Origin: Naegleria gruberi
Taxonomy: Eukaryota
NCBI GenBank assembly: GCA_000004985.1
Contig: GG738870.1
DNA length: 64,000 bases
Reading direction: 5' to 3' (one strand)
The notes under the pieces were generated by a model. That model was not told where the DNA came from, did not search any database, and saw only the letters and a program-made list of their open reading frames with translations. Position numbers and translations under genes: made by a program. The number at the start of each line of letters is the position of its first letter. Position 1 is the stretch's first letter. Shown one piece after another: positions 1-35,055 of this stretch.

Positions 1-431
1 ACCCAAACCCAAACCCAAACCCAAACCCAAACCCAAACCCAAACCCAACCCAAACCCAAACCCAAACCCAAACCCAAACCCAAACCCAAACCCAAACCCA
101 AACCCAAACCCAAACCCAAACCCAAACCCAAACCCAAACCCAAACCCAACCCAAACCCAAACCCAAACCCAAACCCAAACCCAAACCCAAACCCAAACCC
201 AAACCCAAACCCAAACCCAAACCCAAACCCCAACCCAAACCCAAACCCAAACCCAAACCCAAACCCAAACCCAAACCCAAACCCAAACCCAAACCCAACC
301 CAAACCCAAACCCAAACCCAAACCCAAACCCAAACCCAAACCCAAACCCAAACCCAAACCCAAACCCAAACCCAAACCCAAACCCAAACCCAAACCCAAA
401 CCCAAACCCAAACCCAAACCCAAACCCAAAC
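1..431. repeat. Terminal telomeric repeat array (CCCAAA)n on the + strand, G-strand unit TTTGGG, about 70 units with a few variant units (CCCAA, CCCCAA).
   Basis: Direct reading: a perfect hexamer tandem array begins at base 1 and ends abruptly at 431. The C-rich strand reads 5' to 3' into the chromosome, as expected for a left chromosome end. Confidence 0.9.
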
Positions 432-706
432 ACTTTTCACATCAACTTGAATCTATTTTTAACTTTTCCGCGCGTTTTTCGGTTTGATCAACCGGCAAAA
501 ATAATTTTGATCAAGTGATTTTATTGCCACTAGCCACCATCATAACTTGATATATATAAATATTTAACAATTTCACATCAGCCGTATATTGTGCCCCATT
601 ACCATCACCATCTTTTGACATCATTTGTGATATATATTGTTAATGTATTTAAGGAGAAAAGCTTAATAAATAGGGGTTGACATGGGATCCAAACCCATTT
701 TGACAT

Positions 707-977
707 TCATCCATATCATACATGGTACATGGCTGATCCACTTGATACCTACAGGGATGTGACAATGACATCTACTATACAGATCATTATGTAATTGATA
801 CAGTACCTTACTGATGGTGAATAAACACTACTGTATCAGTTTCATGACAACTTGATATCATTCAACATGTCAGGAGTGTAATCATGGGAATAATGAATAT
901 CAAGATAATGAAATCATATTAATTTTGAAATCTTTCAATTATAATATCATTTATAGATCAATTAATCAAGGTATTTC
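707..977. repeat. Subtelomeric repeat A, copy 1 (about 270 bp)
   Basis: About 90% identical by eye to 2011..2280. Shared string: tcatccatatcatacatggtacatggctgatccacttgatacctacagggatgtgacaatgacatctactatacagatcat. Confidence 0.8.
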
Positions 978-1139
978 ATTAATTGGTATTGAATTTCATA
1001 TCAATTCATTTAAACCTTAATGACCTATCCTTAGATGACCAACTCAATTTTTAAACTATCATGAATCAAATAACTATTGATACCATTGTNNNNNNNNNNN
1101 NNNNNNNNNNNNNNNNNNNNNNNNNNNNNNNNNNNNNNN

Positions 1140-1590
1140 AACCCAAACCCAAACCCAAACCCAAACCCAAACCCAAACCCAAACCCAAACCCAAACCGAA
1201 ACCCAAACCCAAACCCAAACCCAAACCCAAACCCAAACCCAAACCCAAACCCAACCCAAACCCAAACCCAAACCCAAACCCAAACCCAAACCCAAACCCA
1301 AACCCAAACCCAAACCCAAACCCAAACCCAAACCCAAACCCAAACCCAAACCCAAACCCAAACCCAACCCAAACCCAAACCCAAACCCAAACCCAAACCC
1401 AAACCCAAACCCAAACCCAAACCCAAACCCAAACCCAAACCCAAACCAACCCAAACCCAAACCCAAACCCAAACCCAAACCCAAACCCAAACCCAAACCC
1501 AAACCCAAACCCAAACCCAAACCCAAACCCAAACCCAAACCCAAACCCAAACCCAAACCCAAACCCAAACCCAAACCCAAACCCAAACCC
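1140..1590. repeat. Second (internal) telomeric array (CCCAAA)n, same orientation as the terminal array
   Basis: A tandem hexamer array begins just after a 50-N gap and ends at ...cccaaacccacgactaagg. Variant units include a CCGAAA. It may be a true interstitial telomeric sequence or an assembly artefact next to the gap. Confidence 0.8.
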
Positions 1591-2010
1591 ACGACTAAGG
1601 TCAGACCCAATATTTTGACTTTTATTCATCTTAATTAATTATCTCAATAAATACTCATTATAAATCAATATATTATATATCAATATACTCCAAATTGAAT
1701 ATATAATCATATTATAACATAATATTACATCATTATAATGACTTATGTAAGTTAATTTCATATAATAGATTAGACAATTAGAATATCAATGAAAACATTT
1801 CAGAATCAATTCAAATCAATATATCATCTTATAAATCATGTTTATAACAATATATATCAATTTCAAATACTTTGGTATCTTTTCAAGAAATTTACTATTC
1901 AACTTGTCAACTGACCTATACTAACATTGAAGATAGAAATATATACCACTTCAATTCACTTCTAATACATCTATACATGATAATTAAATATATATATATG
2001 ATTTAGAAGA

Positions 2011-2280
2011 TCATCCATATCATACATGGTACATGGCTGATCCACTTGATACCTACAGGGATGTGACAATGACATCTACTATACAGATCATCATGAAACT
2101 GGTACAGGACCTTACTAGTGGTGTATAAACACTACTGTATCAGTTTCATGACAATTTGAAATCATTCAACATGCCAGGAGTGTAATCATGAGAATTATGA
2201 ATATCAAGATAATGAAATCATATTAATTTTAAAATCTTTCAATTATAACATCATATATAGATCAATTAATCATGGTATTT
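2011..2280. repeat. Subtelomeric repeat A, copy 2, truncated by a 984-N gap
   Basis: Aligns with 707..977 and runs into the N run at 2281..3264. Confidence 0.8.
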
Positions 2281-3264
2281 NNNNNNNNNNNNNNNNNNNN
2301 NNNNNNNNNNNNNNNNNNNNNNNNNNNNNNNNNNNNNNNNNNNNNNNNNNNNNNNNNNNNNNNNNNNNNNNNNNNNNNNNNNNNNNNNNNNNNNNNNNNN
2401 NNNNNNNNNNNNNNNNNNNNNNNNNNNNNNNNNNNNNNNNNNNNNNNNNNNNNNNNNNNNNNNNNNNNNNNNNNNNNNNNNNNNNNNNNNNNNNNNNNNN
2501 NNNNNNNNNNNNNNNNNNNNNNNNNNNNNNNNNNNNNNNNNNNNNNNNNNNNNNNNNNNNNNNNNNNNNNNNNNNNNNNNNNNNNNNNNNNNNNNNNNNN
2601 NNNNNNNNNNNNNNNNNNNNNNNNNNNNNNNNNNNNNNNNNNNNNNNNNNNNNNNNNNNNNNNNNNNNNNNNNNNNNNNNNNNNNNNNNNNNNNNNNNNN
2701 NNNNNNNNNNNNNNNNNNNNNNNNNNNNNNNNNNNNNNNNNNNNNNNNNNNNNNNNNNNNNNNNNNNNNNNNNNNNNNNNNNNNNNNNNNNNNNNNNNNN
2801 NNNNNNNNNNNNNNNNNNNNNNNNNNNNNNNNNNNNNNNNNNNNNNNNNNNNNNNNNNNNNNNNNNNNNNNNNNNNNNNNNNNNNNNNNNNNNNNNNNNN
2901 NNNNNNNNNNNNNNNNNNNNNNNNNNNNNNNNNNNNNNNNNNNNNNNNNNNNNNNNNNNNNNNNNNNNNNNNNNNNNNNNNNNNNNNNNNNNNNNNNNNN
3001 NNNNNNNNNNNNNNNNNNNNNNNNNNNNNNNNNNNNNNNNNNNNNNNNNNNNNNNNNNNNNNNNNNNNNNNNNNNNNNNNNNNNNNNNNNNNNNNNNNNN
3101 NNNNNNNNNNNNNNNNNNNNNNNNNNNNNNNNNNNNNNNNNNNNNNNNNNNNNNNNNNNNNNNNNNNNNNNNNNNNNNNNNNNNNNNNNNNNNNNNNNNN
3201 NNNNNNNNNNNNNNNNNNNNNNNNNNNNNNNNNNNNNNNNNNNNNNNNNNNNNNNNNNNNNNNN
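2281..3264. other. Assembly gap (N run). Other gaps lie at 1090..1139, 4264..4315, 6017..6066, 10658..10715 and 31802..31851.
   Basis: Runs of n. The poly-X ORFs the track lists across them are artefacts. Confidence 0.99.
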
Positions 3265-3457
3265 AACGTTCTCGTCGCAGAGATAATAGATATACTAGGC
3301 ATTTTTGAGTTGACCATTTTTGATTATCTCAATAACTACGGGGAGTTTTTTCACGTGTATTATAGAATAGATATATTAATGTATTTAATAATACATATAT
3401 AAGAACTGGATAGCCAATATTAGCGGTTCGTTTTATGTGATTAGGTTTTCGCCATAC
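3265..3457. repeat. Subtelomeric repeat B, copy 1 (at least 193 bp; 5' end hidden by the gap)
   Basis: Nearly identical to 7688..7889 (aacgttctcgtcgcagagataatagatatacta...gttttcgccatac). Confidence 0.85.
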
Positions 3458-3472
3458 CCAAACCCAACCCCA
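3457..3472. repeat. Short telomere-like remnant cccaaacccaacccca (about 2.5 units) at the junction of repeat B copy 1 and a 1-kb insertion
   Basis: Direct reading. It is absent from the B2-C2 junction at 7889/7890, where B and C abut. Confidence 0.6.
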
Positions 3473-3474
3473 GA

Positions 3475-4035
3475 ATGCCAAACTTGTTAGAAATCATTAA
3501 GCTATTTCAAAACAAGTTGGAAAGGATACGAAAATCACGAAATGATAATTCTCAATTATCTGTACAAGAAATACATGGGTTGTTTACCAACTTTATTCAT
3601 GGTAAAAGTCTTGCTCATCGTAGAATGACGAAAAGACGTAATCAACTCAAGGTTGGAGGAAGGGACTTGGTTCTTGACACCACCCCTCCCCCAGTGAACC
3701 CTCCAACCAACTACCCAATAGTGAACTCCTTTAACCAATCCAGGTTAAGAAACGAAACTATTGGAATTCATTCCAATATACTAAGTAGAATTACAGAACT
3801 AGGAACAGATCCTAAAAAGAGGAAAGTTCCTGATTCAAATCTGAATTCTAAAGATTCAAAGATCAGTAAAAGGAATGAACCTACTACCTTGAAACGTTCC
3901 CAACAGACTACTCTTCAATTTGGCAAGAAGCCAAAGAAGAATGAACTCAATGAAGGAAGTTCATCGTCAGTTGAAGATGCGAATCTTAACAACGGTCAAG
4001 ATTCGAATCAAGGCAACGTTCACGATTCACAGTAA
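3475..4035 (+). CDS. Hypothetical basic, low-complexity protein (186 aa). ATG sits 2 bp after the telomere-like remnant. No recognisable domain.
   Basis: ORF with ATG at 3475 and TAA stop. Lys/Arg/Ser/Asn-rich. Possibly a subtelomeric orphan gene or a spurious ORF. Confidence 0.3.
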   Translation: MPNLLEIIKLFQNKLERIRKSRNDNSQLSVQEIHGLFTNFIHGKSLAHRRMTKRRNQLKVGGRDLVLDTTPPPVNPPTNYPIVNSFNQSRLRNETIGIHSNILSRITELGTDPKKRKVPDSNLNSKDSKISKRNEPTTLKRSQQTTLQFGKKPKKNELNEGSSSSVEDANLNNGQDSNQGNVHDSQ

Positions 4036-4431
4036 TAAGGTCAAGTGAACTTCCACTTGACTCTATTACAGTAGAGCGAGATTAGTATAAATACTAAGCT
4101 AGCTCAATATATTTTTCAATAAAAATTACAAACACAGCCCTAGATTGGCTCGCAAGTTTTCTGGTTTTTATTGTTTTTTCAAAGGGAATAGTTCAAACTC
4201 ATCATCATCATCTTTCTGAACAAGATATTCATCAGTGGAGCCTTCGGGACCCATAACAACAAANCNNNNNNNNNNNNNNNNNNNNNNNNNNNNNNNNNNN
4301 NNNNNNNNNNNNNNNTTTCACTGAAATTGATTTCATGACATGTAGACACTCTAATTAGTATATGGTATCAATTTCATGAATATTGGTTCAGCAGATGTCG
4401 ACTTGTCAACTCTATCACAATACTATAGACA

Positions 4432-6016
4432 TTTGATATAAAATCAAAGATTATGCTCCAACTCGCTCATTTTATATGAAATTAGTCTGGAACTGATAAC
4501 ACACATTCTATACATCAATTTAATACATCTATATATGTTTAGAAACAATTCGTGATACTTTCATTCAGCTAATCGGAACATGTTCAATGTCATAAGTGAA
4601 TATATTCAAGTGTACACTCTATCTCAGTGAAAGTACATCCAATCATTCTGTAACTTTACCAAATACCTTTAATCACACTATTATACATCTGATATCAATT
4701 TTATAGTGTTAGAATTGAATTCAATATGATAATAATAACAATCTGTCAAATTGTCAGAGTTCAACATATAGAATGTAAACCATCTCAGTCATTTTACAAA
4801 ATATCACACTAGTGTCAAATATGAATACACTTCCCTTCATGAGGAGAACAATATGAGAAAGTTTCACATTGATGGCTCAGTATCTTCAAGTCAACTAAGG
4901 AACATCTAAGGTAATCAATAGGGAAGAATCTTATTTCCAAAATTAAATTTTACCATCATATCAAAATCATTGAATAATGAATTATTTATAATATTCAATT
5001 ATTATATTCATGTCAGTAATCAGTGAAGGTGACACTTCTTCAACCTTAGTATACACATCTCAATATCTAGACTGTCAATTCCACTGAACCTTGAAATACT
5101 ACCTATTTAGATGATGGTATGACGACTCTCCATAGTACCATATATGTGAAATTGAATATTGACACTTTTCATCTAGCTATGTTTATAGAGATGGTATCCA
5201 GCAGAGTCAGTTCATAATATCAAATATTGAAATTAGTTCTTTATGGCATATGCGATGTCTAGAAGTGTTTTTGATTATACCAATCTAGTTTAAAGCACTT
5301 TGGCGGAGTTGACACTGTTTAGTTACAAATACATGACATTTGAACCATAGTTTACATTCCATCTCAGTCATTTCAACGATTTATTGATTAATTCCACCAC
5401 CATTATGTTTCTCATACATTGTAGTACAGTTTATATTTCAAGAGTGATTTCTGTGTAGATTATTATAAATCGTAATACTATTCAATACCATTAAAACTCA
5501 ATAGAAGTCAATTCTTCTCATTTTCAAATAGATTATTCAATATAGAAACACATCTAGATAGTTTCCATATCATAAAAGTCAAGCTACTATATATGGTCTT
5601 TGATTAAATTTAAAAATAGACTGCCGTTGATTACTGGAATATTAATTCAAAGCTTGATGATCAAGTTATTGATTGAAAATCAAACCGATTATTGAATATT
5701 GATTATTGAATTGGTGAATAATCAATATTGATAATGTTACTTATTCATATTGCAAATCAACCAGATTCAATCTACAAAGGTTGGTAGTTGCACCACTACG
5801 TGGCGAAACTACCATTCCACGATCAATCAACATAAGAATCACTTCCATTCAACTCAATTTGACCGTTATAATCAATAAATCAATGAAATGTTCCTTTATT
5901 AGCAATACCTATTCAATCTAATCAGTAGATTCACGTCCCANACATTTGACTTCTAAAAGTCCATAATTCAAAAGTTAGTACTGACCTGACCTTTAAATAT
6001 CTATCAATACAAGAAA
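4432..6016. repeat. Subtelomeric repeat C, copy 1 (about 1.6 kb, non-coding, ends at a gap)
   Basis: About 88-90% identical by eye to 7890..9486 (ctatagacatttgatataaaatcaaagattatgctcc ... ctttaaatatctatcaatacaagaaa). No ORF over 70 codons. Confidence 0.8.
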
Positions 6017-7687
6017 NNNNNNNNNNNNNNNNNNNNNNNNNNNNNNNNNNNNNNNNNNNNNNNNNNTCAATTTTGAAAAACTAAGAGTAGCTATATATAA
6101 TATCTAATAAATCATATTTAAATATCAAAACTGATATCAAAATGCTTCAAATAACATATATAACATGATACAATTGAAATAAATATCATATCTCATATTA
6201 AATATTGAGATAGTCAATTAAGGTACCTCAATAGCGAAGTACCCTAAGGACAATGAGATTCATTACCAAATTGATACAACATGTTATTAACCTCATATAA
6301 TGAGGTTCCTATCAATTTCATATCATTTGGACATCATTCAATATTCATGTCATTCAACCATGTCAGCAACTACTCATGGCAATATGACAAGTCAATATCA
6401 AGAGTTGAAACAAGATAGTATATCATACCACTACTCTTATAAATGATATTTATAACGTTTCTGAGTGGTAGAAATCAATATCTATATAATTGGAATATCT
6501 GTCAAGCTACTGTCCTAATTGACCAAAGGTAACATTCTTACATGTCATGAATGGTAAGAATCACTTCCAATTCATTACTATCATGTTATAATCATCAAAT
6601 ACTACCATAATATCAGTTATGGAATGATTTCAATATCATCTTAGATAGTTGTCATATGACAAAGTTACTACCTTAGTGAACTACCCATGTCATTAAGAAA
6701 TATCAAAGTTGAAAAATTTCAATTATATATTCATATTTACATCAAATAGAGTCTATAATATCAGTTTCATAACATATAATCAATAATTGGTGTTATGGCA
6801 ATAATTCTATTGAGATTAGACATTGCAACATTTCCCAAATTGGAAATATAGAATATTAAATCATGAAACCAATTATCTGTCGATAAAATGCATAGATAAA
6901 CGATATTATCAAATAAAATATATAGGTCCCTATTGAAAGTGTTTACCTGGTAAAAAGTGAGCGTAATTTCCCCTACTTTCATCCTAATTGGTTATCTCCC
7001 TATATATATGATAAATTTCAATTATTTCAATTGAATATCATAAATCATGATAATTAGACATGTATCAATGAGTGGAATTAAGTCATGTAAGATATTCATC
7101 CTTCAATAACCAATATTGTCAATTTCACACAAGTTGACTTCCTACAGTCTGAATATTGATCCAATAATGATTATTTCAATTATATATGATTATATTTGAC
7201 ATTTACTACAATATCTATGAGTTAATATAAATGGGAGAGTATTTCCATAGTATGGCTCAATATCTTGGTCAATTAAGGTAGAATGATTACAGTATACTAA
7301 GGATATCATATATTATACTTCAAACACTTCTAAAAGGTAGATATTATCATAATGCATCATATATATGAGATTGGTGATGATTCTAATAACATTCATATAA
7401 TAGTACAATAAATGTTGAAAAGTTAATTTTTAGACATGTTGTAGTTTATTTAATATACCGATTCAACAAGTTTAATTGATAATGTCATCTATTCATATAT
7501 ATATCTACAATATATCAAAAGTTTCATTCTGGCCCAACTTTGAAATTTTCAACTTTGTCAGACCCAAGGGAGGTTCAACCCATGGGGTCACTTTAGGACT
7601 CAATTATCTCGGGAACGGCGAATTAAAAAAATTAGTATTTTCTATCATTTCTTCCATAACTCGTATAGATTGATATTTGAGTGAATC

Positions 7688-7889
7688 ATAATCCGGAACG
7701 TTCTCGTCGCAGAGATAATAGATATACTAAGAATTTTTGAGTTGACCATTTTTGATTATCTCAATAACTACGGGGAGTTTTTTCACGTGTATTACAGAAT
7801 AGATATATTAATGTATTTAATAATACATATATAAGAACTGGATAGCCAATATTAGCCGTTCGTTTTATGTGATTAGGTTTTCGCCATAC
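7688..7889. repeat. Subtelomeric repeat B, copy 2
   Basis: Matches 3265..3457. Followed directly by repeat C copy 2. Confidence 0.85.
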
Positions 7890-9486
7890 TATAGAACTTT
7901 GACATAAAATCAAAGATTATGCTCCAAATCACTTATTTTATATGTAATTAGTCTAGAATTGATAACACACATTCTATACGCCATGTATATACATCTATAC
8001 AAGTTTAAAAACAATTCATAATACTTTAATTCAGTCAATCAGTAAATGTTCAATGTCAACAGTATATATATCCAAGTGTACGCTCTATCTCAGCGAAAGT
8101 ACATCCAACCATCATGTAACTTTACCAGATACATTTAATCACACTATTATACATATGGTATCAATTACATACTGTTAGAACTGAATTCAGTAGGATAATA
8201 ATAACAATCTGTCAAATTGTCACATTTCAACATATAGATTGTATACCATCTCAGTCAATTTACAAAATATCATACAAGTGTCAAACATGAATACACTTCC
8301 CTTGATGAGGACAACAATCTGAGAAAGTTTCATGTTGATGGCTCAATATCTTCAAGTCAACAAAGGAACATCTAAGGTTGTCAATAGGGAAGAATCATAT
8401 TTCCAAAATTAAATTTTACCATCATATCACAATCATTGAACAATGAATTATTGATACAAGAATCATATGTTCAATTGTTATATTCATGTCACTAATCAGT
8501 GAAGGTGACACTTCTTAAACCTTAGAATACACATCTCAATATGTAGACAGTCAATTCCACCGAAACTTGAAATGCTATCTGTCTAGATGATACAATGATG
8601 ACACTCCATATGTGTAATTGAATGTTGACACTTTTCATCTTGTTATATTTATAGGGATGGTATCCAACAGAGTCAGTTCACAATATTAAATATTGAAACT
8701 CATTCCATAGGACAGGTTTGATGTATAGAACGGTTTATTATTGAATGTATCAGTTTGATATAATTTGATGAAATTGACACTGTCAAGTCACCATTACATG
8801 ACAAATAGACCATAGTTTACATTCCATCTCAGTCATTTCAACGAGTCGTTGAATAATTCTACCACCATTATGTTTCGCATACATTATAGTACAGTTTATA
8901 TTTCAAGAGTGATTTCTGTGTAGATTATTATAATCGTAATACCATGCAATACCAATAAAACTCAATAGAAGAGTTAATTCTTCTCATTTACAAATAGATT
9001 ATTCAATATAGAACACATCTAGATAGTTTCCAGATCATAAAAGTCAAGATACTATATATGGTCTTTGATTAAATTTAAAAATAGACTGCCGTTAATTACT
9101 GGAATATTAATTCAAAGCTTGTTGATCAAGCTATTGATTGAAATCAAACCGATTATTGAATATTGAATATTGAATTGGTGAATAATCACTCTTGATAATG
9201 TTACTTATTCATATTGCATGCAAATCAACCAGATTCAATCTACAAAGGTTGGTAGTTGCACCACTTCGTGGCGAAACTACCCATCCACGATCAATCAACA
9301 TGTGATTCACTTCCATTCAACTCAATTTGACCGTTATATTCAATAAATCAATGAAATGTTCCTTTATTAGCAATACATATTCAATCTAACGAGTAGATTC
9401 ACGTCCCAAACATTTGAATTTTCTCAAAGTCCATAATTCAAAAGTTAGTACTGACCGGACCTTTAAATATCTATCAATATAAGAAA
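7890..9486. repeat. Subtelomeric repeat C, copy 2
   Basis: Collinear with 4432..6016, including the conserved hairpin ggtagttgcaccac(t/a)(a/t)cgtggcgaaactacc. Confidence 0.8.
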
Positions 9487-10032
9487 TGAAAACATCAAAT
9501 TTACATCATTAATAGATGATAAGAATTATAATCAATGATATGAATCTTCACTAAGTAATCTCTTAAATAACCCAAATAAATCAACTCTGAATCCTAACCA
9601 AACCCAATAAAATGAGGAGAGATTCATGCTATGATTAATTGGAAGAGCCACATAGATTTTGGGTACTATCTGAACTGAAATGAGGTAGAAAGAGTACAAT
9701 CTTCAAGAGCAAACAATTTAGGTCCTATTTATGTTGGATTTCTGATGGTTAGGTTCTCCCGGGCAATCCTAAAGTCACCTCACACAATAAAGTAGATGAT
9801 AATATTTCTATTTTGAGGTTGTTCATTTATTTTTTTTGCCAATTAAATATTTTCTAGCTCTCTAATTTCAATCGTTGCCTTCCCCATAACTACTTTACAA
9901 TTTACAAAGATTCAAACACCTGCCCACAAACAAACCATGTAGATTCCTAAAATCAAGTCATTTTTGAAAAATTCATTTAAATTACAGATTTATTTTTACA
10001 GAGCTCGACAGTTGACTATACAAAGTGCCAAT

Positions 10033-10985
10033 TTAGAAACACTTTCTGTGAACGATACCTGGACCGGCATCCTCATATTCTTCCTTTGTGATCCACATCT
10101 GCTGAAAGGTCGAAAGGCTCGCTAAGATGGAACCACCAATCCAGACAGAGTATTTTCTTTCTGGTGGAGCAACAACCTTAATCTTCATAGAGGCTGGAGC
10201 CATAGCAGTCAATTCCTTGGTCATTCTTTCAGCAATACCTTCGAACATGGTAGTACCACCAGACAAGACAACGTTACCGTACAAGTCCTTTCTGATATCA
10301 ATATCACATTTACCAATTGAATTGAAAGTAGTTTCATGAACACCAGCAGCTTCCATACCAATGAAGTTAGGTTGGAACAAGACTTCTGGACATCTGAATC
10401 TTTCATTACCAACAGTAATGACATTACCGTCTGGCAATTCGTATGACTTTTCAACTGATGATGATTCAGCAGCAACCTTCATTTCAGCTTCAAAGTCCAA
10501 AGCAATATAACAGAGCTTTTCCTTAATATCTCTGACAATTTCTCTTTCAGCAGTAGTATTGAATGAGTAACCTCTTTCCATCAAAATCTTCATCAAATAA
10601 TCAGTCAAGTCACGACCAGCCAAATCCAATCTCAAAATAGCGTGTGGCAAAGCATAANNNNNNNNNNNNNNNNNNNNNNNNNNNNNNNNNNNNNNNNNNN
10701 NNNNNNNNNNNNNNNGGTGATGCCAGATCTTTTCATATCATCCCAATTGGTAACAATACCGTGTTCAATTGGATACTTCAAAGTCAAGATACCTCTCTTT
10801 GATTGAGCTTCATCACCAACATAGGCATCCTTGTTACCCATACCAACCATAATTGATTTTTGCTTTGGTCTACCAATAATTGAAGGGAAGACAGCTCTTG
10901 GAGCATCATCACCAGCAAAACCAGCTTTACACATACCAGAACCGTTGTCAACAACGAGGGCTTGAACGTCTTCACAGAAGGACAT
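10033..10985 (-). CDS. Actin (conventional, highly conserved). The CDS is interrupted by a 58-N assembly gap that hides about 60 codons and breaks the frame.
   Basis: N-terminal part [41 protein letters not shown]...[16 protein letters not shown] (ATG at 10983..10985). C-terminal part [20 protein letters not shown]...[37 protein letters not shown]...IVHRKCF, with stop TAA at 10033. The C-terminal track ORF actually starts at a TTG; the real frame continues into the gap. Confidence 0.95.
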
Positions 10986-11199
10986 GTTTAATTATTTGTT
11001 TTTTTTGTTTGTGAATTTTGTCAAGTCATCGGAATGTGAGTTAAATAATAATTGTGTGATGACAGGTTCAATGATTTGTTCAAGTTGGGTTGATGGGTGA
11101 ATGACTTGTTTACAAAACATGAAGGTCAACTAGTCACTTGACTTCAAAAACCTTATTAGAGATACTGTGATTGAGTAGGTATTTCTTGCAATTCGTTTT

Positions 11200-29465: not shown

Positions 29466-32337
29466 CTAGTTCTGTTCAGTGTTTGGACGAGTTTGGTTCG
29501 GGCTAAGTGGTTGGGACAGCTGTTGCCTTTGGTAAGCAGAAGTGTATTTTTTGTTTTTGATGAAGGAGTCGGTGGGACGATTGTACCATGATGAATTTTT
29601 GTAGCAGTTACTAACATATACTGCGAGAGCTTTGTAGATATCTAGGGCCACAGCCTTGGGGAGTCGTTTGTGATTGGCCCAAATGGACCAATTATGCTTT
29701 GTGCATCGACCGTCATATTCAATGTTAAGGCAATTTGGAATGGAAGATTCAGGTGGGAAACGGATCTTGCTTAGGTTGTATTTATGAGAGATATCGTCCC
29801 AAGTGGCATATAGTTCTTGCTTTTCAGGTAAGCATTTTGGACAGGATTGGAAGACATGGGTCCAGGTTTCTTCCTTGTGACATATGTCACATTCACTATT
29901 AATGCCTAGATATATGGCATGGTGTAGGTTGTAAAATAGTAGACGTTGTTGGTAGTACGAGAGTTGGTGGTTTCTCCAAAGAGACAACACACAGTGGTGC
30001 CAGTTGAACTCGTTGTCAAGTTGGCCCATTATTGTTATTTCTTTTTTTTTACGTTCATTGTTTAGAACGAGTTGTCTGATGTTTTGGACAGGTTTGTGAC
30101 TATTGCGGTGGCACAACACCCATCCACTTTCGGTGGATTTGAAGTATAAATTCAATTCTTTCATAGTAATACTAGTTTGTTTCCATAAAGAATCTGTTGC
30201 ATCATTGTTGGGTTGTTTCATCATGTTTCTAGCTATATTTCTGGTTAAGGGAGATGTAGAATTAACAAATCTGCATACAGCTGCCATTCTCTCAACGCTA
30301 GAGATGTCTACAGGAGACATCAGCCCCATTCCTCCTTGCTGTACATCACCATAGATGATAGCCTTGGATAGTTTGAGGTTGCATCCTATTTTGGATTTAA
30401 TTGTTACACTAATTTTAGTTTCTAAACTCTGTAAAGTGGATTGAGAGACAGCATCTACACTGGAGAGGTATCTGGGTACGGAAAGTACCTTTGATAACAA
30501 TACAGTTCTAACTGTATTGAGTCTGAGATGTCTGGGTCTGAAATTATTAAGTCGGGAGTTAATCTTATCTATCAATTTATCTTGAGAGGGCGACCATTTC
30601 AGGTTATTAAGAAGTCTGGAACCAAGATATTCGAGGGTATCTTTAGGGTTGTTGATATTGACGTTATTAAGGAATACTTTGGCGGTAGACTTTTTACCAG
30701 ATGCAGTGACACCAAATACTTTGCATTTATGAGTAGCAAAGTGCATGCCTAATTGGTTGGCAGTTGAGTTGAGTTTGTGGAGGATGTTTGTCATTTCGTT
30801 GGATGATTCTGAAAGGACAATGATGTCATCTGCATACAACAACATTACAATTTTGTCTCCTAATAGAGAGACTCCTTTAAAGCCATCAACGATACTCGTG
30901 ATGGCATTGAAATAAATATTGAACACAAGTGGACTCAATGGGTCTCCTTGTGGGACTCCAAAAGTAGCATCAAACGCCGGTGATGTGGAACCATTAGCAA
31001 ACACTTTCACAGAATGTTCACTAATCATATTCATGATTAAATCGCATACTGATTGATTGAAACCTTGATATTTCAAGATTTCTTTCAGTTTGCTATGGAC
31101 AACGCTGCCATATGCATTTTTAATATCAAGGGTGCACATAAATAAAGGTTTCTTTTTGTGCCTGTAGTTGGCAACGACTGATTTCACTATCACGAGCTGG
31201 TCTGTCGTGGATGCTAGTCTTCTGAAGCCTCTTTGGGCTGGATGAATTAAATTATCCTTTTCCACCCTTTCCATGAGGTGGTAATTGACGTACGAAGAAA
31301 AAATTCTGTAAATAATTGGTAGAACTACTATAGGTCTAAAATCTGATAGACGTTTAGGGCAATTGGTTTTAGGTAAGGGAAGTAATAACCCCTCTTTCCA
31401 AGAGGACGGAATGGGATTTCCATCCACAAGGATCTTGTTGAAAGCTTGGCAGACTATGTCTAATGCCTCATCATTCATGCTCTTAAATACCAACATTGGG
31501 ATTTTGTCCCATCCGGGCATTGTATGTTTCATCTTTCCAATAATATTGGAGAGAGAACTTACACAGGCAGGTGGGATTTTGAACCCATTAAGGGAATCTA
31601 TGGATTGATAGTTTTGTAGGTTTAGTTTGGTAGATCCTAGATCAGTATTGAACATTTTGTTGAAATGTTCAAACACATTATCTGGGACGGATTCAACATC
31701 AAACACTGAACTTGAGTTCCTTTCTTTTTTAAATGCATATCTATAGGGAGTGTTGAGTTTGAGGTTGTTAACTGCAATTTTGAATGCTTCTTTTCTTTGT
31801 TNNNNNNNNNNNNNNNNNNNNNNNNNNNNNNNNNNNNNNNNNNNNNNNNNNCCCAAAATACAAATTAATATTGAGATCTCCAAGTATGAAAATGTGCTCC
31901 GAGTGAAACATGCATTCTGTAACTAGATCTGTAACTTTTGAAAGGATCTTGTGAAATTCACTTGAGACTCGGTGGACACCATACCAGTTGATTATATTGA
32001 TGATACCATCACTTGTTTCCAATTTTAGGCATGTCAATCTGCCTTGATAGAGTTCTTCAAATGATAGTACCTTTCTTTGAAGAGTACCTTTGATAATCGT
32101 AATGACACCGGCTGCTTTATCATCCTTATTACAGTGTGATCCAAATATGGAGCACGGTTGAAAGAATTTGGCAGCTTTTGAAACTTGATCCTTGAATTCA
32201 TTGTGTGACCAATGAGTTTCTTGGACATTCACTACATTAAGTCCTTCTCTATTAATGTGTTGGAGTAGAATGGCTTGTTTGTCTAGAGAGAAGGACGACA
32301 GATTACAAGAGGCCATTCTAATGCGAGGGGAGACCAT
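29466..32337 (-). CDS. LINE ORF2 protein (APE endonuclease, RT, zinc knuckle; about 960 aa, split in the track by the 31802..31851 gap)
   Basis: See the mobile_element entry. The frames of the two track ORFs differ only because of the arbitrary gap length. Confidence 0.8.
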
Positions 32338-33800
32338 TATTGTTGGTCGGAAGCTCCGTTCATATCCGTATCATCGTCGGATAGAGTGAGAGCTTCTTTG
32401 CCTTGTTTTCTTTGTTTTCTAGGCTTGTGACTTGAGCCAGAAGGTAAAAAGGTTTGCACATCTGTTGACAATTCAGTCAACTTATCGTCTAATGCACCAA
32501 TCATAGTATAAGTATTTTCATAGTCCGTATCTAGTTCGGCAAGCATTTCTTGTACTTGAGTATTCCTTTTGTTGCTATCTTCACTGAGTGTATTAATTTT
32601 AGTTTCAGTGGTAGTGAAGGAGGATTGCAACTGACTGAGTTGGATTTGGAGGGAAGTAATTTCATCCAAAAGACCGTCAATTTTAGCAACTTTAACTTTC
32701 ATTTCATTATTTTCTTTAGAGTGGTTGCTAAGAGTAACTGATTTGTCCAAGACGTTCTTATCGAGGTTAGTGTAGTGGGTTCTAATATTATTAATACTAG
32801 TATTGAGTTCCTTAAAATCATTTGTGTGTATAGTATTGATATTTGTAATGGATTTTTCTAACTCATCATTCTTAGTCTTCAGAGCCTGATTTTCTTTGAC
32901 TAATGAATCAACCCGAGATTGCAGCTCAGTGTATGCACTGGCAAGAACAAATCTGGTAGGATCTACGAGGGAAGCTTCTGAGATGGCGTGTTGAACCAAC
33001 TCCTTCACTTTGGTGATGAGGGAAGGTTTGTTGAGTCTAGGATTGAAGGAGAGATTTGTGACAACGACATCTCCAACGTAGATAATTTTGGTGAGTGTGC
33101 TTTTTTTCAGCTCTTCACGTTTGACTTTAACATAAGCGGTGTTGTTGTTAATGTCAAGTTCAGGATTAAGTTTCCACGCACTAATAATGACCTTTTTGAG
33201 TGCATCGATTTGTAGTTTTCTATCCGAATCCCAAGTGAGACGTAGAGTAGTGGTACTGACGTCTATTTCAGATAGAAAGTTGGGTTTATTATCTAATAGA
33301 TTTTCAACATTAACAGCCCAGAAATTATTCGAAGGGGAATAATTCATGCTAACAACTGACTTCACCTCACCGATCACCTTTTTAAGGTTTGGAATATTGA
33401 ATGGAAGGTCTACCTTATAGCGATACAGAGTGGAGACTCTTTGAAGAAACATAAATGAGTCTGTACCTTTCCACTCCTTAACAGCATTAAGTGCCATTTC
33501 ATGGCTCACAAAGTAAGCAAAGGCTACTCCTTTGAGGCCCAATGGAATGTGAACACCATTAACCCAACTCAGGTTAATGTTGTAGTGTTCTAAAATTTGT
33601 TGCTGGCTGCTGTTATCAGGATGACCCGCAAGAAGGACCCTGAATCTACGCTTATAAGATGGGAAGATGTGGCGTACCTGTCTACCATCTTTAGCTTCTG
33701 CTTTGGATGTGGCAGGTGTGTTGGCCTTCCTTGCTGATGTGTTGTTGTTGCTTGGAGACTGGTCAAGTTTTCCTCCGGGAGTCGGAGGAGTTTTGCCCAT
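32337..33800 (-). CDS. LINE ORF1 protein (about 487 aa from the first ATG): RRM-like domain followed by a long coiled-coil region
   Basis: The track ORF starts at a TTG (33857). The first ATG is at 33798..33800 (MGKTPPTPGG...). RNP1-like KGVAFAYF. Heptad-rich C-terminal half (LVKENQALKTKNDELEKSITNINT...). Confidence 0.7.
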   Translation of the reverse strand: MGKTPPTPGGKLDQSPSNNNTSARKANTPATSKAEAKDGRQVRHIFPSYKRRFRVLLAGHPDNSSQQQILEHYNINLSWVNGVHIPLGLKGVAFAYFVSHEMALNAVKEWKGTDSFMFLQRVSTLYRYKVDLPFNIPNLKKVIGEVKSVVSMNYSPSNNFWAVNVENLLDNKPNFLSEIDVSTTTLRLTWDSDRKLQIDALKKVIISAWKLNPELDINNNTAYVKVKREELKKSTLTKIIYVGDVVVTNLSFNPRLNKPSLITKVKELVQHAISEASLVDPTRFVLASAYTELQSRVDSLVKENQALKTKNDELEKSITNINTIHTNDFKELNTSINNIRTHYTNLDKNVLDKSVTLSNHSKENNEMKVKVAKIDGLLDEITSLQIQLSQLQSSFTTTETKINTLSEDSNKRNTQVQEMLAELDTDYENTYTMIGALDDKLTELSTDVQTFLPSGSSHKPRKQRKQGKEALTLSDDDTDMNGASDQQ

Positions 33801-33945
33801 TTTTTTTGAACCCCATATATATTGAAGAAAACCCAATCTCAATATCTTTTGACTCAAATTCTTCCCTCAAACTACTGTAAGGACATTAAATTTCCAAAAT
33901 AGTATTAAAAAACGCCAATTTTTCAAGTTCATTTAAGGCACGCTA

Positions 33946-35055
33946 ATGTGCGATCGGATGAATAAGAAAAACAACAATAAAAAAATGGAAACAATCACAG
34001 CGCTTATTCCCTCCTCCGTGAAGGATCATTTTGAAACTCTGTTATCTTGCACGGTGAAGAGTAGTGATAAGATGAATAGGGTGATCTCTTACGGATTTTT
34101 GGGAAGTTTAATGTTGTACTTGGGGCGAAGATTTTTCAGAGGAACTTTCGTTTCTTCCGAATTGATGAATAAGAAGGATTTGAGTGGACAAGTTGTGCTG
34201 GTTACTGGATGTAGTAGAGGAGGAATTGGTTATGAAACTGTAAAGGCTTTGTATTTAAGAGGAGCTCAAGTTGTTGTTGCTGTTAGAGATAAAGCAAGAA
34301 GTGAGAAGGAATTCTTTGAATTGTTGAATCAACATAAGGGAGAACAGAGAGGATTTATTGTTGTAATGAAGGTGGATTTGGATGATTTGGAAAGTGTTAG
34401 AGAATTTGCAAAGGAATTTTTACAGAGATTTAATCGATTGGATATTTTGATTAATAATGCTGGATTGGGAGGAGCTGATGGTGTTTCTAAACAGGGATAC
34501 GAAACTCATTTTGCTGTAAATCACTTGAGCCACTTTTTATTGGTTCATTATTTGAGACAATTGATTTTGGATACTAGTGTTAAATATTATAAGGAATGTA
34601 AAATTATCAATGTTGGATCGGCTGCTCACATGTTTGTTAGAAAGGAGGAACACTTGAATTTTACAAAGGAAAGAATTAGTAAGGCTGACCCTACCATGTT
34701 TGCTTATGGTCAATCCAAGCTCTGTAACTTGTTATTTACAAAATCCCTTGCTAGACAATTACAAGATTCAAAGGTTGGAGTATATGTTATACATCCAGGA
34801 GCTGTGCAAACAAACTTTTTCCGCAGAATGCCAATCATGTCCATTTTGAATTGGATTGTTTGGTACTTTTTCAAGACTCCAGAAGGAGGTGCTCAAACTC
34901 AAATCCATGTTGCCTTGGAAAGTATGGATAAGTTACGTAGTGGAGGATATTATTCAGATTGTGGACTGGCTAGAGAAACCTCTCTTGCAAATAATGTCGA
35001 CATTCAAGACAAGTTATGGAACTTCAGTGAAGAATTGTGCAAGGATTATATGTAA
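33946..35055 (+). CDS. Short-chain dehydrogenase/reductase, retinol-dehydrogenase-like (RDH11/12/WWOX-type), 369 aa
   Basis: Rossmann motif VVLVTGCSRGGIGYET. NNAG motif ILINNAGLGG. Catalytic YGQSKLCN. The true start may be a later Met (MNKKNN.. or METITA..). Confidence 0.8.
   Translation: MCDRMNKKNNNKKMETITALIPSSVKDHFETLLSCTVKSSDKMNRVISYGFLGSLMLYLGRRFFRGTFVSSELMNKKDLSGQVVLVTGCSRGGIGYETVKALYLRGAQVVVAVRDKARSEKEFFELLNQHKGEQRGFIVVMKVDLDDLESVREFAKEFLQRFNRLDILINNAGLGGADGVSKQGYETHFAVNHLSHFLLVHYLRQLILDTSVKYYKECKIINVGSAAHMFVRKEEHLNFTKERISKADPTMFAYGQSKLCNLLFTKSLARQLQDSKVGVYVIHPGAVQTNFFRRMPIMSILNWIVWYFFKTPEGGAQTQIHVALESMDKLRSGGYYSDCGLARETSLANNVDIQDKLWNFSEELCKDYM

What the first reader, a model, noticed from the sequence alone, without database searches (positions are those of the whole stretch)
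3265..9486. Subtelomeric segmental duplication B-C with a 1-kb insertion in one copy, marked by a telomere-like remnant
Repeats B (about 200 bp) and C (about 1.6 kb) occur twice. In copy 2 (7688..9486) they abut directly. In copy 1 they are separated by about 960 bp, beginning with cccaaacccaacccca and containing a 186-codon ORF (3475..4035). That pattern is what an insertion at an internal telomeric seed, or an old telomere-healing or telomere-capture event, would leave. The region is otherwise gene-free.
Basis: seen in the sequence. Interest (0 to 1): 0.5.

Follow-up and report, generated by a model that had tools for sequence, protein, structure and literature searches.

The report
Telomere-associated element in Naegleria subtelomere
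At the end of a Naegleria gruberi chromosome scaffold, the "1-kb insertion" between two repeated blocks is a copy of a conserved, protein-coding element bracketed by short telomere repeats, which suggests this chromosome end grew by pieces being added onto old telomeres, although assembly gaps leave the exact layout unproven.

Summary
The window is the left end of a 418-kb Naegleria gruberi scaffold whose telomere repeat is TTTGGG. B (3265-3457 / 7697-7889, 98% identical) and C (4420-6016 / 7886-9486, 88%) each occur twice. In copy 1 they are separated by a segment that starts with a 12-16-nt telomere-like motif and carries a 186-codon ORF.

The interpretation needs revising in three ways.
- ORF186 is an annotated gene (XP_002676680.1). 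It has full-length homologues in metagenome contigs, where the unit sits in head-to-tail arrays. Every junction there carries C-strand telomere repeats, the 3' end is a conserved hairpin plus telomeric tail, and 5' ends vary. This is the architecture of telomere-attaching elements (Athena/Coprina-like, or yeast Y'-like) and points to terminal addition, not internal insertion.
- B is much younger than C (p = 2.5e-5), and identity drops exactly at the B|C junction. That junction carries a 4-nt microhomology (ATAC), so copy 2's junction is probably the derived one.
- Copy 1 lies on two small contigs bounded by gaps, and the scaffold carries two independent telomere arrays. The in-cis duplication is therefore unproven.

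No reverse transcriptase and no hammerhead ribozyme was found, so membership of a retroelement family remains untested.

The parts
1..430 (+). Terminal telomere array T1, (CCCAAA)n C-strand, about 73 units
   Evidence: TTTGGG is the published candidate N. gruberi telomere repeat (PMC3622300)
689..697 (+). Short interstitial telomere-like motif CCAAACCCA, preceded by GGGATCC, at the left boundary of block A
   Evidence: the 15-mer TGGGATCCAAACCCA is identical to the 5' junction of the truncated element in L001
697..976 (+). Block A, with paralogue A' at 2001-2280 (93% identical); A' ends at a contig end
1140..1590 (+). Second telomere array T2, same orientation as T1, about 76 units, with a different variant-repeat fingerprint from T1
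3265..3457 (+). Repeat B, copy 1; it begins at the first base after a 984-N gap
   Evidence: 4 differences in 193 nt vs copy 2
3456..3472 (+). Telomere-repeat remnant ACCCAAACCCAACCCCA in C-strand orientation; it forms the distal (5') junction of the ORF186 element and overlaps the last 2 nt of B
3475..4035 (+). ORF186 = N. gruberi gene model XP_002676680.1 / NAEGRDRAFT_67922; conserved family with an N-terminal helical hairpin and a disordered basic tail
4036..4263 (+). 3' region of the element. It ends in a small UUCG-loop hairpin (about 4235-4254) followed by AUAACAAC and the start of a telomeric tail (AAAC...). The contig breaks here.
   Evidence: L001 continues ...ACAACAAACCCAACC
4264..4315 (.). 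Scaffold gap (N-run) of unknown true size between the B1/element contig and the C1 contig
   Evidence: L001 extends 175 nt beyond 4263 with sequence not found after the gap
4316..4419 (+). About 100 nt upstream of C1 with no counterpart at the copy 2 junction; ends in ATAC (4420-4423)
4420..6016 (+). Repeat C, copy 1; it ends at the last base before a 50-N gap
7697..7889 (+). Repeat B, copy 2, inside the continuous contig 6067-10657
7886..7889 (+). ATAC microhomology at the copy 2 B|C junction; it aligns both to the last 4 nt of B1 (3454-3457) and to the 4 nt before C1 (4420-4423)
   Evidence: chance of a 4-nt match is about 0.008
7886..9486 (+). Repeat C, copy 2; mosaic identity to C1 (67-92% in the left 1 kb, 94-97% in the right 0.6 kb)
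9598..9607 (+). Interstitial telomere-like motif CCAAACCCAA in C-strand orientation, 112 nt beyond the visible end of C2 and about 430 nt from the first gene (actin, stop at 10033)

Best explanation
The first ~9.6 kb of this N. gruberi chromosome-end scaffold is a layered subtelomere. Its blocks are separated by short fossil telomere repeats, all in the orientation of the terminal array.

The ~0.8-kb segment between B1 and C1 (3456 to about 4268) is one unit of a conserved telomere-associated element. Reading along the strand, the unit consists of a C-strand telomere remnant, ORF186, a ~230-nt 3' region, a small hairpin, and a C-strand telomeric tail.

The most likely mechanism is terminal addition, not internal insertion:
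1. The unit was joined to a former chromosome end through its telomere-complementary 3' tail. This most probably happened by endonuclease-independent reverse transcription primed from the G-rich overhang, as proposed for Athena/Coprina Penelope-like elements.
2. Telomerase then re-capped the unit's 5' end, leaving the CCCAAACCCAACCCCA remnant.
3. B and further DNA were later added distally.

The direct B|C junction of copy 2 is a secondary junction made at a 4-nt microhomology (ATAC). It arose either by microhomology-mediated break-induced replication (telomere capture) that copied B onto a broken C2 end, or by deletion.

Shown: the repeats, both junctions, the motif statistics, the ORF family, and the array architecture in related contigs.
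Inferred: the RNA intermediate, the order of events, and the in-cis layout.
For: - ORF186 is a real conserved gene. It is 100% identical to XP_002676680.1. Full-length homologues P0012/P0014 share 35% identity and the same Met-Pro start. The ORF length is unreachable by chance.
- L002 carries two head-to-tail units, 86.6% identical. Each 3' end reads ...CCTTCGGCCCTTGTTTCGTTTCGGT|AAACCCAAACCC(AAA) and is followed by the next unit or by further telomere-like fragments.
- L003 has the same ORF continuing upstream in frame for at least 153 aa, with no telomere motif. This indicates a longer form of the element. The 3' end is the same, followed by AAACCCAA and then unrelated DNA.
- L001 is 100% identical to window 3713-4263 but carries the unit truncated 240 nt further in. 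It is joined to unrelated DNA through CCAAACCCAA and followed by AAACCCAACC and a second ...GGGACCCATAACAAC|AAACCCAAACCCAA end. This gives variable 5' ends, a constant 3' end, and at least two genomic contexts.
- All 9 telomere-like motifs in L001-L003 and all 3 motifs of 9 nt or more in the window's non-array DNA are in C-strand orientation relative to the ORF and the terminal array. In the window they occur only in the first 10 kb. The ORF's sense strand is the C-rich strand with its 3' end toward the centromere, as expected for priming on the G-overhang (mechanism per PMC8557442 and PMC13159263).
- B differs from its copy at 2%, C at 10.6%, with the step exactly at the junction. The junction carries a 4-nt microhomology.
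Against: - No reverse transcriptase was seen. The window, L001 and L002 contain only the ORF186 module. The 153-aa upstream extension in L003 has no Pfam hit (only a precomputed 'weak' PF26215), no PDB match, and no usable structure model (pLDDT 45).
- No hammerhead ribozyme or other Rfam family was found.
- In both N. gruberi and the distant relative, the unit's 5' boundary lies within 2-17 nt of the same ATG. Random 5' truncation does not predict this; a fixed-boundary unit (Y'-like) or a discrete short form fits better.
- The annotated N. gruberi proteome holds only one ORF186 copy.
- L001-L003 are short metagenome contigs from organisms that were not identified.
- The 3' hairpins are small and not statistically distinctive (z from -2.1 to +0.6).
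- The order of events cannot be read directly, because copy 1 is split by gaps.
Confidence: 0.5

Rival explanations
1. Assembly artefact. Copy 1 (contigs 3265-4263 and 4316-6016) and one of the two telomere-bearing contigs belong to the other haplotype or to another chromosome end that shares subtelomeric repeats, and the scaffolder stacked them in front of the main contig. On this view there is no tandem B-C duplication on one chromosome. This rival concerns the layout only and is compatible with the best explanation of what the element is.
For: - There are five small contigs (1.0-1.7 kb) in the first 6 kb, separated by N-runs of 50, 984, 50 and 50.
- Homology of B1, C1 and A' ends exactly at contig ends (3265, 6016, 2280).
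- Two independent telomere arrays with different variant fingerprints lie 700 nt apart in the same orientation.
- Single-N calls at 4264 and 5941 suggest low coverage.
- L001 shows that the element exists in another context.
- Copy 2 alone is contiguous with unique genes.
Against: - 12% divergence in C is far above ordinary allelic divergence, so copy 1 would have to be a paralogue rather than an allele.
- A buried telomere array with a new array distal to it is exactly what terminal additions produce, so T2 could be real.
- Both copy 1 breakpoints lie inside contigs.
Confidence: 0.45
2. Y'-like recombinational element. The ORF186 unit is a fixed-boundary subtelomeric repeat bounded by internal telomere tracts. 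It spreads and forms tandem arrays by homologous recombination or break-induced replication through those tracts, as yeast Y' elements do, with no RNA intermediate. Truncated copies arise from breakage followed by telomerase healing.
For: - The 5' boundary is the same (2-17 nt upstream of the ATG) in N. gruberi and in the distant L002 lineage.
- Head-to-tail copies are separated by 12-15 nt of telomere repeat.
- No RT and no ribozyme were detected.
- The truncated L001 copy is joined at a pre-existing ACCCAA seed within the ORF, a natural telomerase healing site.
Against: - L003 shows the ORF continuing upstream in frame without any telomere tract, so the boundary is not fixed.
- Adjacent L002 copies are 13% diverged and have telomere tracts of different length, which is unlike recent unequal exchange.
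- The 3' end is conserved as a hairpin plus tail across 65% protein divergence, which suggests a recognition signal.
Confidence: 0.25
3. A single B-C unit was duplicated, and later about 1 kb was inserted into copy 1 at the B|C junction, at an internal telomeric seed or with a 4-bp target-site duplication (ATAC).
For: ATAC flanks the extra DNA in copy 1 and occurs once in copy 2, which is formally the footprint of a 4-bp target-site duplication. A telomere-like motif lies at the left edge.
Against: - B and C have significantly different divergence, with the step at the junction.
- Copy 2 has no telomeric seed at the junction.
- The extra DNA has no terminal repeats.
- It includes about 100 nt (4316-4419) and a gap that are not part of the element as defined by L001.
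- Relatives of the unit lie at telomere-repeat junctions rather than at ATAC sites.
Confidence: 0.1
4. Ordinary host gene. ORF186 is a normal single-copy gene that happens to lie near the chromosome end, and the telomere-like motif just upstream of its ATG is a conserved cis-regulatory box comparable to plant telo-boxes.
For: The motif lies 2-17 nt upstream of the ATG in both N. gruberi and L002. It is an annotated single gene model. The ORF is intact.
Against: - The same motif also follows each 3' end.
- Copies are tandem (L002) and truncated (L001).
- L003 lacks the motif upstream of the ATG and instead extends the reading frame.
- All the motifs share the orientation of the terminal telomere.
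Confidence: 0.08

Closest known systems
Endonuclease-deficient Penelope-like elements (Athena in bdelloid rotifers; Coprina in fungi, a diatom and a clubmoss)
   Same: Located at chromosome ends. Carry short reverse-complement telomeric repeats at the 3' end. Have telomeric repeats on both sides, 5'-truncated copies, head-to-tail orientation with the 3' end toward the centromere, and no poly(A) (literature: PMC8557442, PMC5537684, PMC13159263; observed here).
   Different: No PLE-type RT has been seen for this family. No hammerhead ribozyme motif was found. The conserved module is a 186-aa helical-hairpin-plus-disordered protein with no known domain. PLEs have not been reported in Naegleria in the searchable literature.
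Saccharomyces cerevisiae Y' subtelomeric elements (from my own knowledge of the yeast literature; also mentioned in PMC11042809, listed)
   Same: An ORF-bearing subtelomeric repeat found as single or tandem head-to-tail copies separated by short internal telomere-repeat tracts, in fixed orientation relative to the telomere.
   Different: Y' is 5-7 kb, encodes a helicase and spreads by recombination. Here the unit is about 0.8 kb, the protein is unrelated, and one relative (L003) continues upstream without a telomere tract.
Telomere-specific non-LTR retrotransposons (Drosophila HeT-A/TART/TAHRE; Bombyx SART/TRAS; Giardia GilT)
   Same: Head-to-tail arrays at chromosome ends, variable 5' truncation, and orientation set by priming at the chromosome end (PMC5537684).
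   Different: Those elements end in poly(A) and, where autonomous, encode LINE-type RT. Here the 3' end is a hairpin plus a C-strand telomeric tail with no poly(A). The LINE-like element in this window (29.4-33.9 kb) is unrelated.
Subtelomeric segmental duplications with interstitial telomere sequences (human, yeast and Plasmodium chromosome ends; general knowledge)
   Same: Mosaic paralogous blocks with heterogeneous divergence. Short telomere-like tracts at block boundaries in the telomere's orientation. Microhomology junctions consistent with break-induced replication or end joining.
   Different: Nothing essential differs. This part of the finding is ordinary for a eukaryotic subtelomere, apart from being undescribed in Naegleria.

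Membership tests
EN(-) Penelope-like elements (Athena/Coprina) | Encodes a PLE-type reverse transcriptase (DKN motif, RT motifs 1-7, thumb) | tested here: inconclusive
   There is no RT in the window copy, L001 or L002. L003 provides only 153 aa upstream of the ORF186 module. That stretch has no Pfam hit, no PDB hit and a model at pLDDT 45; the only signal is a precomputed weak PF26215. No relatives were retrievable in genome contigs or viral contigs.
EN(-) Penelope-like elements (Athena/Coprina) | No GIY-YIG endonuclease at the C-terminus of the ORF | tested here: met
   P0014 and P0015 run to their stop codons and have no GIY-YIG or any other Pfam domain. This carries weight only if the element is a PLE at all.
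EN(-) Penelope-like elements (Athena/Coprina) | Short stretch of reverse-complement (C-strand) telomeric repeats at the element's 3' end | tested here: met
   L002 twice and L003 once read ...GGT|AAACCCAA(ACCC...). N. gruberi L001 twice reads ...ATAACAAC|AAACCCAA. The window contig ends in ...acaacaaaNc at 4263-4265.
EN(-) Penelope-like elements (Athena/Coprina) | Hammerhead ribozyme motif next to the 3' telomeric repeats | tested here: not met
   Rfam cmscan found no hammerhead family at E <= 10 on L001-L003 or at E <= 1 on window 1-11000. Only a small UUCG-type hairpin is present.
EN(-) Penelope-like elements (Athena/Coprina) | Sits at or near the chromosome terminus, flanked by telomeric repeats on both sides, 5' end outward, often 5'-truncated | tested here: met
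   The window copy lies 3 kb from the scaffold-terminal array, on the C-strand. A telomere remnant lies at 3456-3472 and a tail starts at 4260. L001's copy is truncated 240 nt further in.
Telomeric non-LTR retrotransposons (HeT-A/TART, SART/TRAS) | Poly(A) or A-rich tail at the 3' junction; LINE-type RT in autonomous members | tested here: not met
   The 3' junctions read AAC|AAACCC or GGT|AAACCC with no poly(A). P0014 is unrelated to the window's RVT_1 element.
Yeast Y'-like recombinational subtelomeric repeat | Fixed unit boundaries abutting internal telomere tracts; tandem head-to-tail copies | tested here: inconclusive
   Tandem copies with internal tracts are present in L002. The 5' boundary is similar in the window and L002. 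However, L003 continues upstream without a tract and L001 is truncated.
Subtelomeric segmental duplication (in cis) | Two collinear paralogous copies on the same chromosome arm | not testable with these tools
   Collinear B and C copies exist. Copy 1 lies on two contigs bounded by gaps on all sides, and the scaffold has two telomere arrays.
Transposon insertion with target-site duplication | Defined element termini flanked by a short direct duplication of the target | tested here: inconclusive
   ATAC flanks the extra DNA, but the same footprint arises from microhomology-mediated deletion or BIR. The segment has no terminal direct or inverted repeats, and it contains a gap.

The most novel reading that the evidence does not exclude
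Naegleria and related heteroloboseans harbour a previously undescribed family of telomere-attaching retroelements. These would be hammerhead-less, with a hairpin-plus-telomeric-tail 3' end and a conserved 186-aa C-terminal module or ORF. They would build subtelomeres by successive endonuclease-independent additions onto chromosome ends. That would extend the 'telomerase-relative retroelements at telomeres' theme to the Discoba, a deep eukaryotic branch where neither telomere biology nor Penelope-like elements have been characterised.
Probability: 0.3. Interest if true: 0.65.

Novelty: new member of a known kind. Interest (0 to 1): 0.45.

Why it matters
N. gruberi telomeres are known only from a candidate repeat (TTTGGG). 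No description of its subtelomeres, or of Penelope-like elements in Naegleria, turned up in my literature searches.

If the ORF186 unit is a terminal-addition element, it gives a concrete, testable case of chromosome-end growth by element capture in a deep-branching eukaryote. It also bears on how widespread telomere-attaching elements related to telomerase are.

There is a practical point as well. The end of this reference scaffold carries two telomere arrays and duplicated small contigs, so gene model XP_002676680.1 and the apparent duplication should be used with caution until they are checked against a long-read assembly.

Tried and rejected
- Other copies of B, C or the junctions: two exact-pattern scans of JGI metagenome contigs (the B end, and the element's 3' end) found nothing. 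A concatenated six-frame query of all subtelomeric frames of 38 aa or more, plus the L001 flanks, found nothing in the 5.8-billion-protein index. Genome-wide copy number therefore could not be measured.
- Internal tandem structure of C: none. Family D10's 327-nt spacing is only weak AT-rich similarity.
- ncRNA or tRNA in B, C or the element: none.
- RT identity of the L003 extension: Pfam run twice, PDB, AlphaFold2 (pLDDT 45), and comparison with the window's LINE RT were all negative or unusable. No fold search was run, because the models were either too poor or too simple (a two-helix hairpin).
- A tblastn hit of P0014 to 57.5 kb on the minus strand (E = 0.018) is antisense to a real gene and was rejected.
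- The idea that B is the 3' end of a related element: an alignment of all junction-proximal sequences shows no homology beyond the short terminal motifs. Dropped.
- A larger A...B...C duplicated unit: similarity of contigs a and b to 6067-7696 is only borderline (z about 4). Not relied upon.
- Exact look-ups of ORF186, P0015, P0002 and the 2167-aa neighbour in the contig index returned nothing.
- The project accession of L001 (PRJEB11402) is not mentioned in any held paper.

Full report
**Origin of the window.** A gene at 33946-35055 is 100% identical to a predicted protein of Naegleria gruberi on a 418,085-bp NCBI scaffold. The window therefore starts at a scaffold end. It opens with a (CCCAAA)n array (1-430) and has a second array in the same orientation at 1140-1590. 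TTTGGG is the published candidate telomere repeat of N. gruberi (PMC3622300). N-runs lie at 1090-1139, 2281-3264, 4264-4315, 6017-6066, 10658-10715 and 31802-31851. The first 6 kb therefore consists of four small contigs (1-1089, 1140-2280, 3265-4263, 4316-6016), followed by a long contig (6067-10657) that runs into the first gene, actin.

**Check of the observation.** Self-BLAST and the repeat finder confirm B (3265-3457 vs 7697-7889, 97.9%) and C (4420-6016 vs 7886-9486, 87.6%), with no other copies in the 64 kb. In copy 2 the two blocks overlap by 4 nt. In copy 1 they are 962 scaffold positions apart. The intervening DNA starts with cccaaacccaacccca (3457-3472) and contains ORF 3475-4035. 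The motif is not chance: telomere matches of 10 nt or more outside the arrays occur at only two loci in 62 kb (3456-3467 and 9598-9607), against 0.44 expected from shuffles. The ORF is not chance either: 0 of 500 simulated subtelomeres reached 186 codons, and the next-longest real ORF there is 71 codons. C has no internal tandem structure.

**The junctions and the age of the blocks.** ATAC is the last 4 nt of B1. It also lies immediately before C1, and it occurs once at the copy 2 junction; the chance of such a 4-nt match is about 0.008. This footprint fits a 4-bp target-site duplication, a microhomology-mediated deletion, or microhomology-primed break-induced replication equally well. The divergence profile helps to discriminate. 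B differs at 4/193 sites and C at 167/1578 (Fisher p = 2.5e-5). Identity drops from 97-98% to 82-87% in the first 300 nt to the right of the junction, then rises to 94-97% in the last 600 nt of C. B and the adjacent part of C therefore do not share a duplication date, which contradicts a one-step B-C duplication followed by an insertion.

**What the extra DNA is.** ORF186 has no Pfam domain, but it is the annotated N. gruberi model XP_002676680.1 / NAEGRDRAFT_67922. An exhaustive HMMER search found a full-length homologue, P0012 (187 aa, E = 3e-12, 35% identity, same Met-Pro start). Its cluster mate P0014 (340 aa) comes, like P0012, from a JGI metagenome. AlphaFold2 on the three-sequence alignment gives a confident N-terminal two-helix hairpin (pLDDT 82-94) followed by a disordered, basic tail.

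The contigs that encode these proteins are the informative part.
- L002 holds two head-to-tail units that are 86.6% identical. Each reads: ORF end, a ~170-nt 3' region, the hairpin ACAAGGACCUUCGGCCCUUGU, GGT, then AAACCCAAACCC(AAA). This is followed by the next unit or by further telomere-like fragments.
- In L003 the same ORF (99.5% identical) continues upstream in frame for at least 153 aa without any telomere motif. Its 3' end is followed by AAACCCAA and then unrelated DNA.
- L001 is an ENA metagenome contig that is 100% identical to window 3713-4263. It carries the unit truncated 240 nt further in and joined to unrelated DNA through CCAAACCCAA. It continues past the window's contig end as ...GGAGCCTTCGGGACCCATAACAAC|AAACCCAACC. 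About 100 nt later there is a second ...GGGACCCATAACAAC|AAACCCAAACCCAA end.

The unit thus has a constant 3' end (a small hairpin plus a C-strand telomeric tail) and variable 5' ends capped by telomere repeat. It occurs in at least two contexts in N. gruberi-type DNA and forms arrays in a distant relative. All nine telomere-like motifs in L001-L003 are C-strand relative to the ORF. In the window the ORF lies on the C-rich strand of a left chromosome end.

**Mechanism.** This architecture matches what the literature describes for endonuclease-deficient Penelope-like elements. They attach to exposed G-rich overhangs through reverse-complement telomeric repeats at their 3' ends. They are found with telomeric repeats on both sides and are often 5'-truncated. 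Telomerase then re-caps them (PMC8557442; PMC5537684; PMC13159263). I therefore favour terminal addition of the unit onto a former chromosome end, followed by re-capping (which left the 3456-3472 remnant) and later distal addition of B.

Because such units are added at ends rather than inserted internally, copy 1 is the more ancestral arrangement. The copy 2 B|C junction is then derived. Microhomology-primed BIR from a broken C2 end into a B...ATAC template would explain both the ATAC junction and the young age of B; a deletion is the alternative.

Short telomere-like motifs in the same orientation also lie at 689-697, the left boundary of block A. That motif is preceded by the same GGGATCC that precedes the L001 junction, giving a shared 15-mer. 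Another lies at 9598-9607, 112 nt beyond the visible end of C2 and about 430 nt from actin. This fits a layered subtelomere in which the original end lay just beyond actin.

**Limits.**
- No reverse transcriptase was found. The L003 extension could not be classified. My impression that it resembles the post-RT linker of PLEs rests on memory and on a precomputed weak PF26215 hit, so it is only a lead.
- No hammerhead ribozyme is present, so one defining PLE feature is not met.
- The unit's 5' boundary lies within 2-17 nt of the same ATG in two distant lineages. A fixed-boundary unit, such as a yeast Y'-like element spreading by recombination, fits this better, so I keep that as a serious rival.
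- The hairpins are small and statistically unremarkable.

**Assembly caveat.** Both breakpoints of copy 1 lie inside contigs and are real, but B1 and C1 are linked only across a gap. L001 shows at least 175 nt beyond 4263 that do not reappear after the gap. The outer limits of B1, C1 and A' coincide with contig ends. The two telomere arrays have different variant-repeat fingerprints. Either T2 is a genuine buried telomere, which terminal additions would produce, or contigs from another haplotype or chromosome end were stacked onto this scaffold. I put the chance that the in-cis B-C duplication is an artefact at roughly one half. This does not affect the identification of the element.

**Verdict.** The telomere-like motif really is a relic of a former chromosome end. 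However, the '1-kb insertion' is a telomere-associated ORF element added terminally, the B|C junction of copy 2 is the secondary event, and the layout needs long-read confirmation. The duplication itself is ordinary subtelomere biology. The element family is undescribed in Naegleria as far as my literature searches show, and it is worth a targeted follow-up.

Noticed in passing
window 29466-33857 (minus strand): A LINE-like non-LTR retrotransposon about 30 kb from the chromosome end. It has an RT ORF (RVT_1, E = 1e-33) and an upstream coiled-coil ORF1 (32337-33857), and is interrupted by the gap at 31802-31851. It is unrelated to the ORF186 family.
   Followed up: partly
window 1-430 and 1140-1590: Two telomere arrays of similar length (about 73 and 76 units) lie in the same orientation, 700 nt apart, with different variant-repeat fingerprints. 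Either T2 is a buried fossil telomere or contigs from two chromosome ends or haplotypes have been stacked.
   Followed up: partly
window 683-697 and L001 158-172: An identical 15-mer, TGGGATCCAAACCCA, occurs at the left boundary of block A (697-976, paralogue at 2001-2280) and at the 5' junction of the truncated element in L001. It may be a recurrent junction or 3'-terminal motif of another end-added sequence.
   Followed up: partly
window 9569-9607: Telomere-like motifs AACCCAAA (9569-9576) and CCAAACCCAA (9598-9607) lie in C-strand orientation between the end of C2 and the actin gene. Because C1 is cut off by a contig end, C may really extend to this motif, which could mark the original chromosome end.
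   Followed up: no
window 10033-10985 (minus strand): The actin gene is the first conserved gene next to the subtelomere. Its coding sequence is interrupted by the assembly gap at 10658-10715.
   Followed up: no
window 3475-4035; P0012, P0014: The ORF186 family has conserved motifs: MPxLxEIIxxFQxK, SxILxRITxLGT, and QTT[L/M]xF followed by a basic cluster (loosely PIP-box-like but one residue short), plus a KKRK-type nuclear localisation signal. Its function is unknown.
   Followed up: no
window 4150-4263 (minus strand); L001 626-805 (minus strand): A 58-60-codon ORF antisense to the element's 3' region (...GPEGSTDEYLVQKDDDDEFELFPLKKQ*) spans the hairpin and tail. It has no homologues and is probably fortuitous.
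   Followed up: partly
window 431-2280 vs 6067-7696; 4316-4419 vs 8131-8170: Borderline similarities (z about 4 against shuffles) among AT-rich subtelomeric segments hint at old, degenerate repeat families. A'-to-B1 spacing (984-N gap estimate) and the spacing from the A-like match at 6748 to B2 (949 nt) are similar.
   Followed up: partly
L003 1150-1296 (minus strand): A partial gene on the opposite strand begins about 50 nt after the element's 8-nt telomeric tail. In that organism the element therefore abuts non-telomeric, possibly genic DNA.
   Followed up: no
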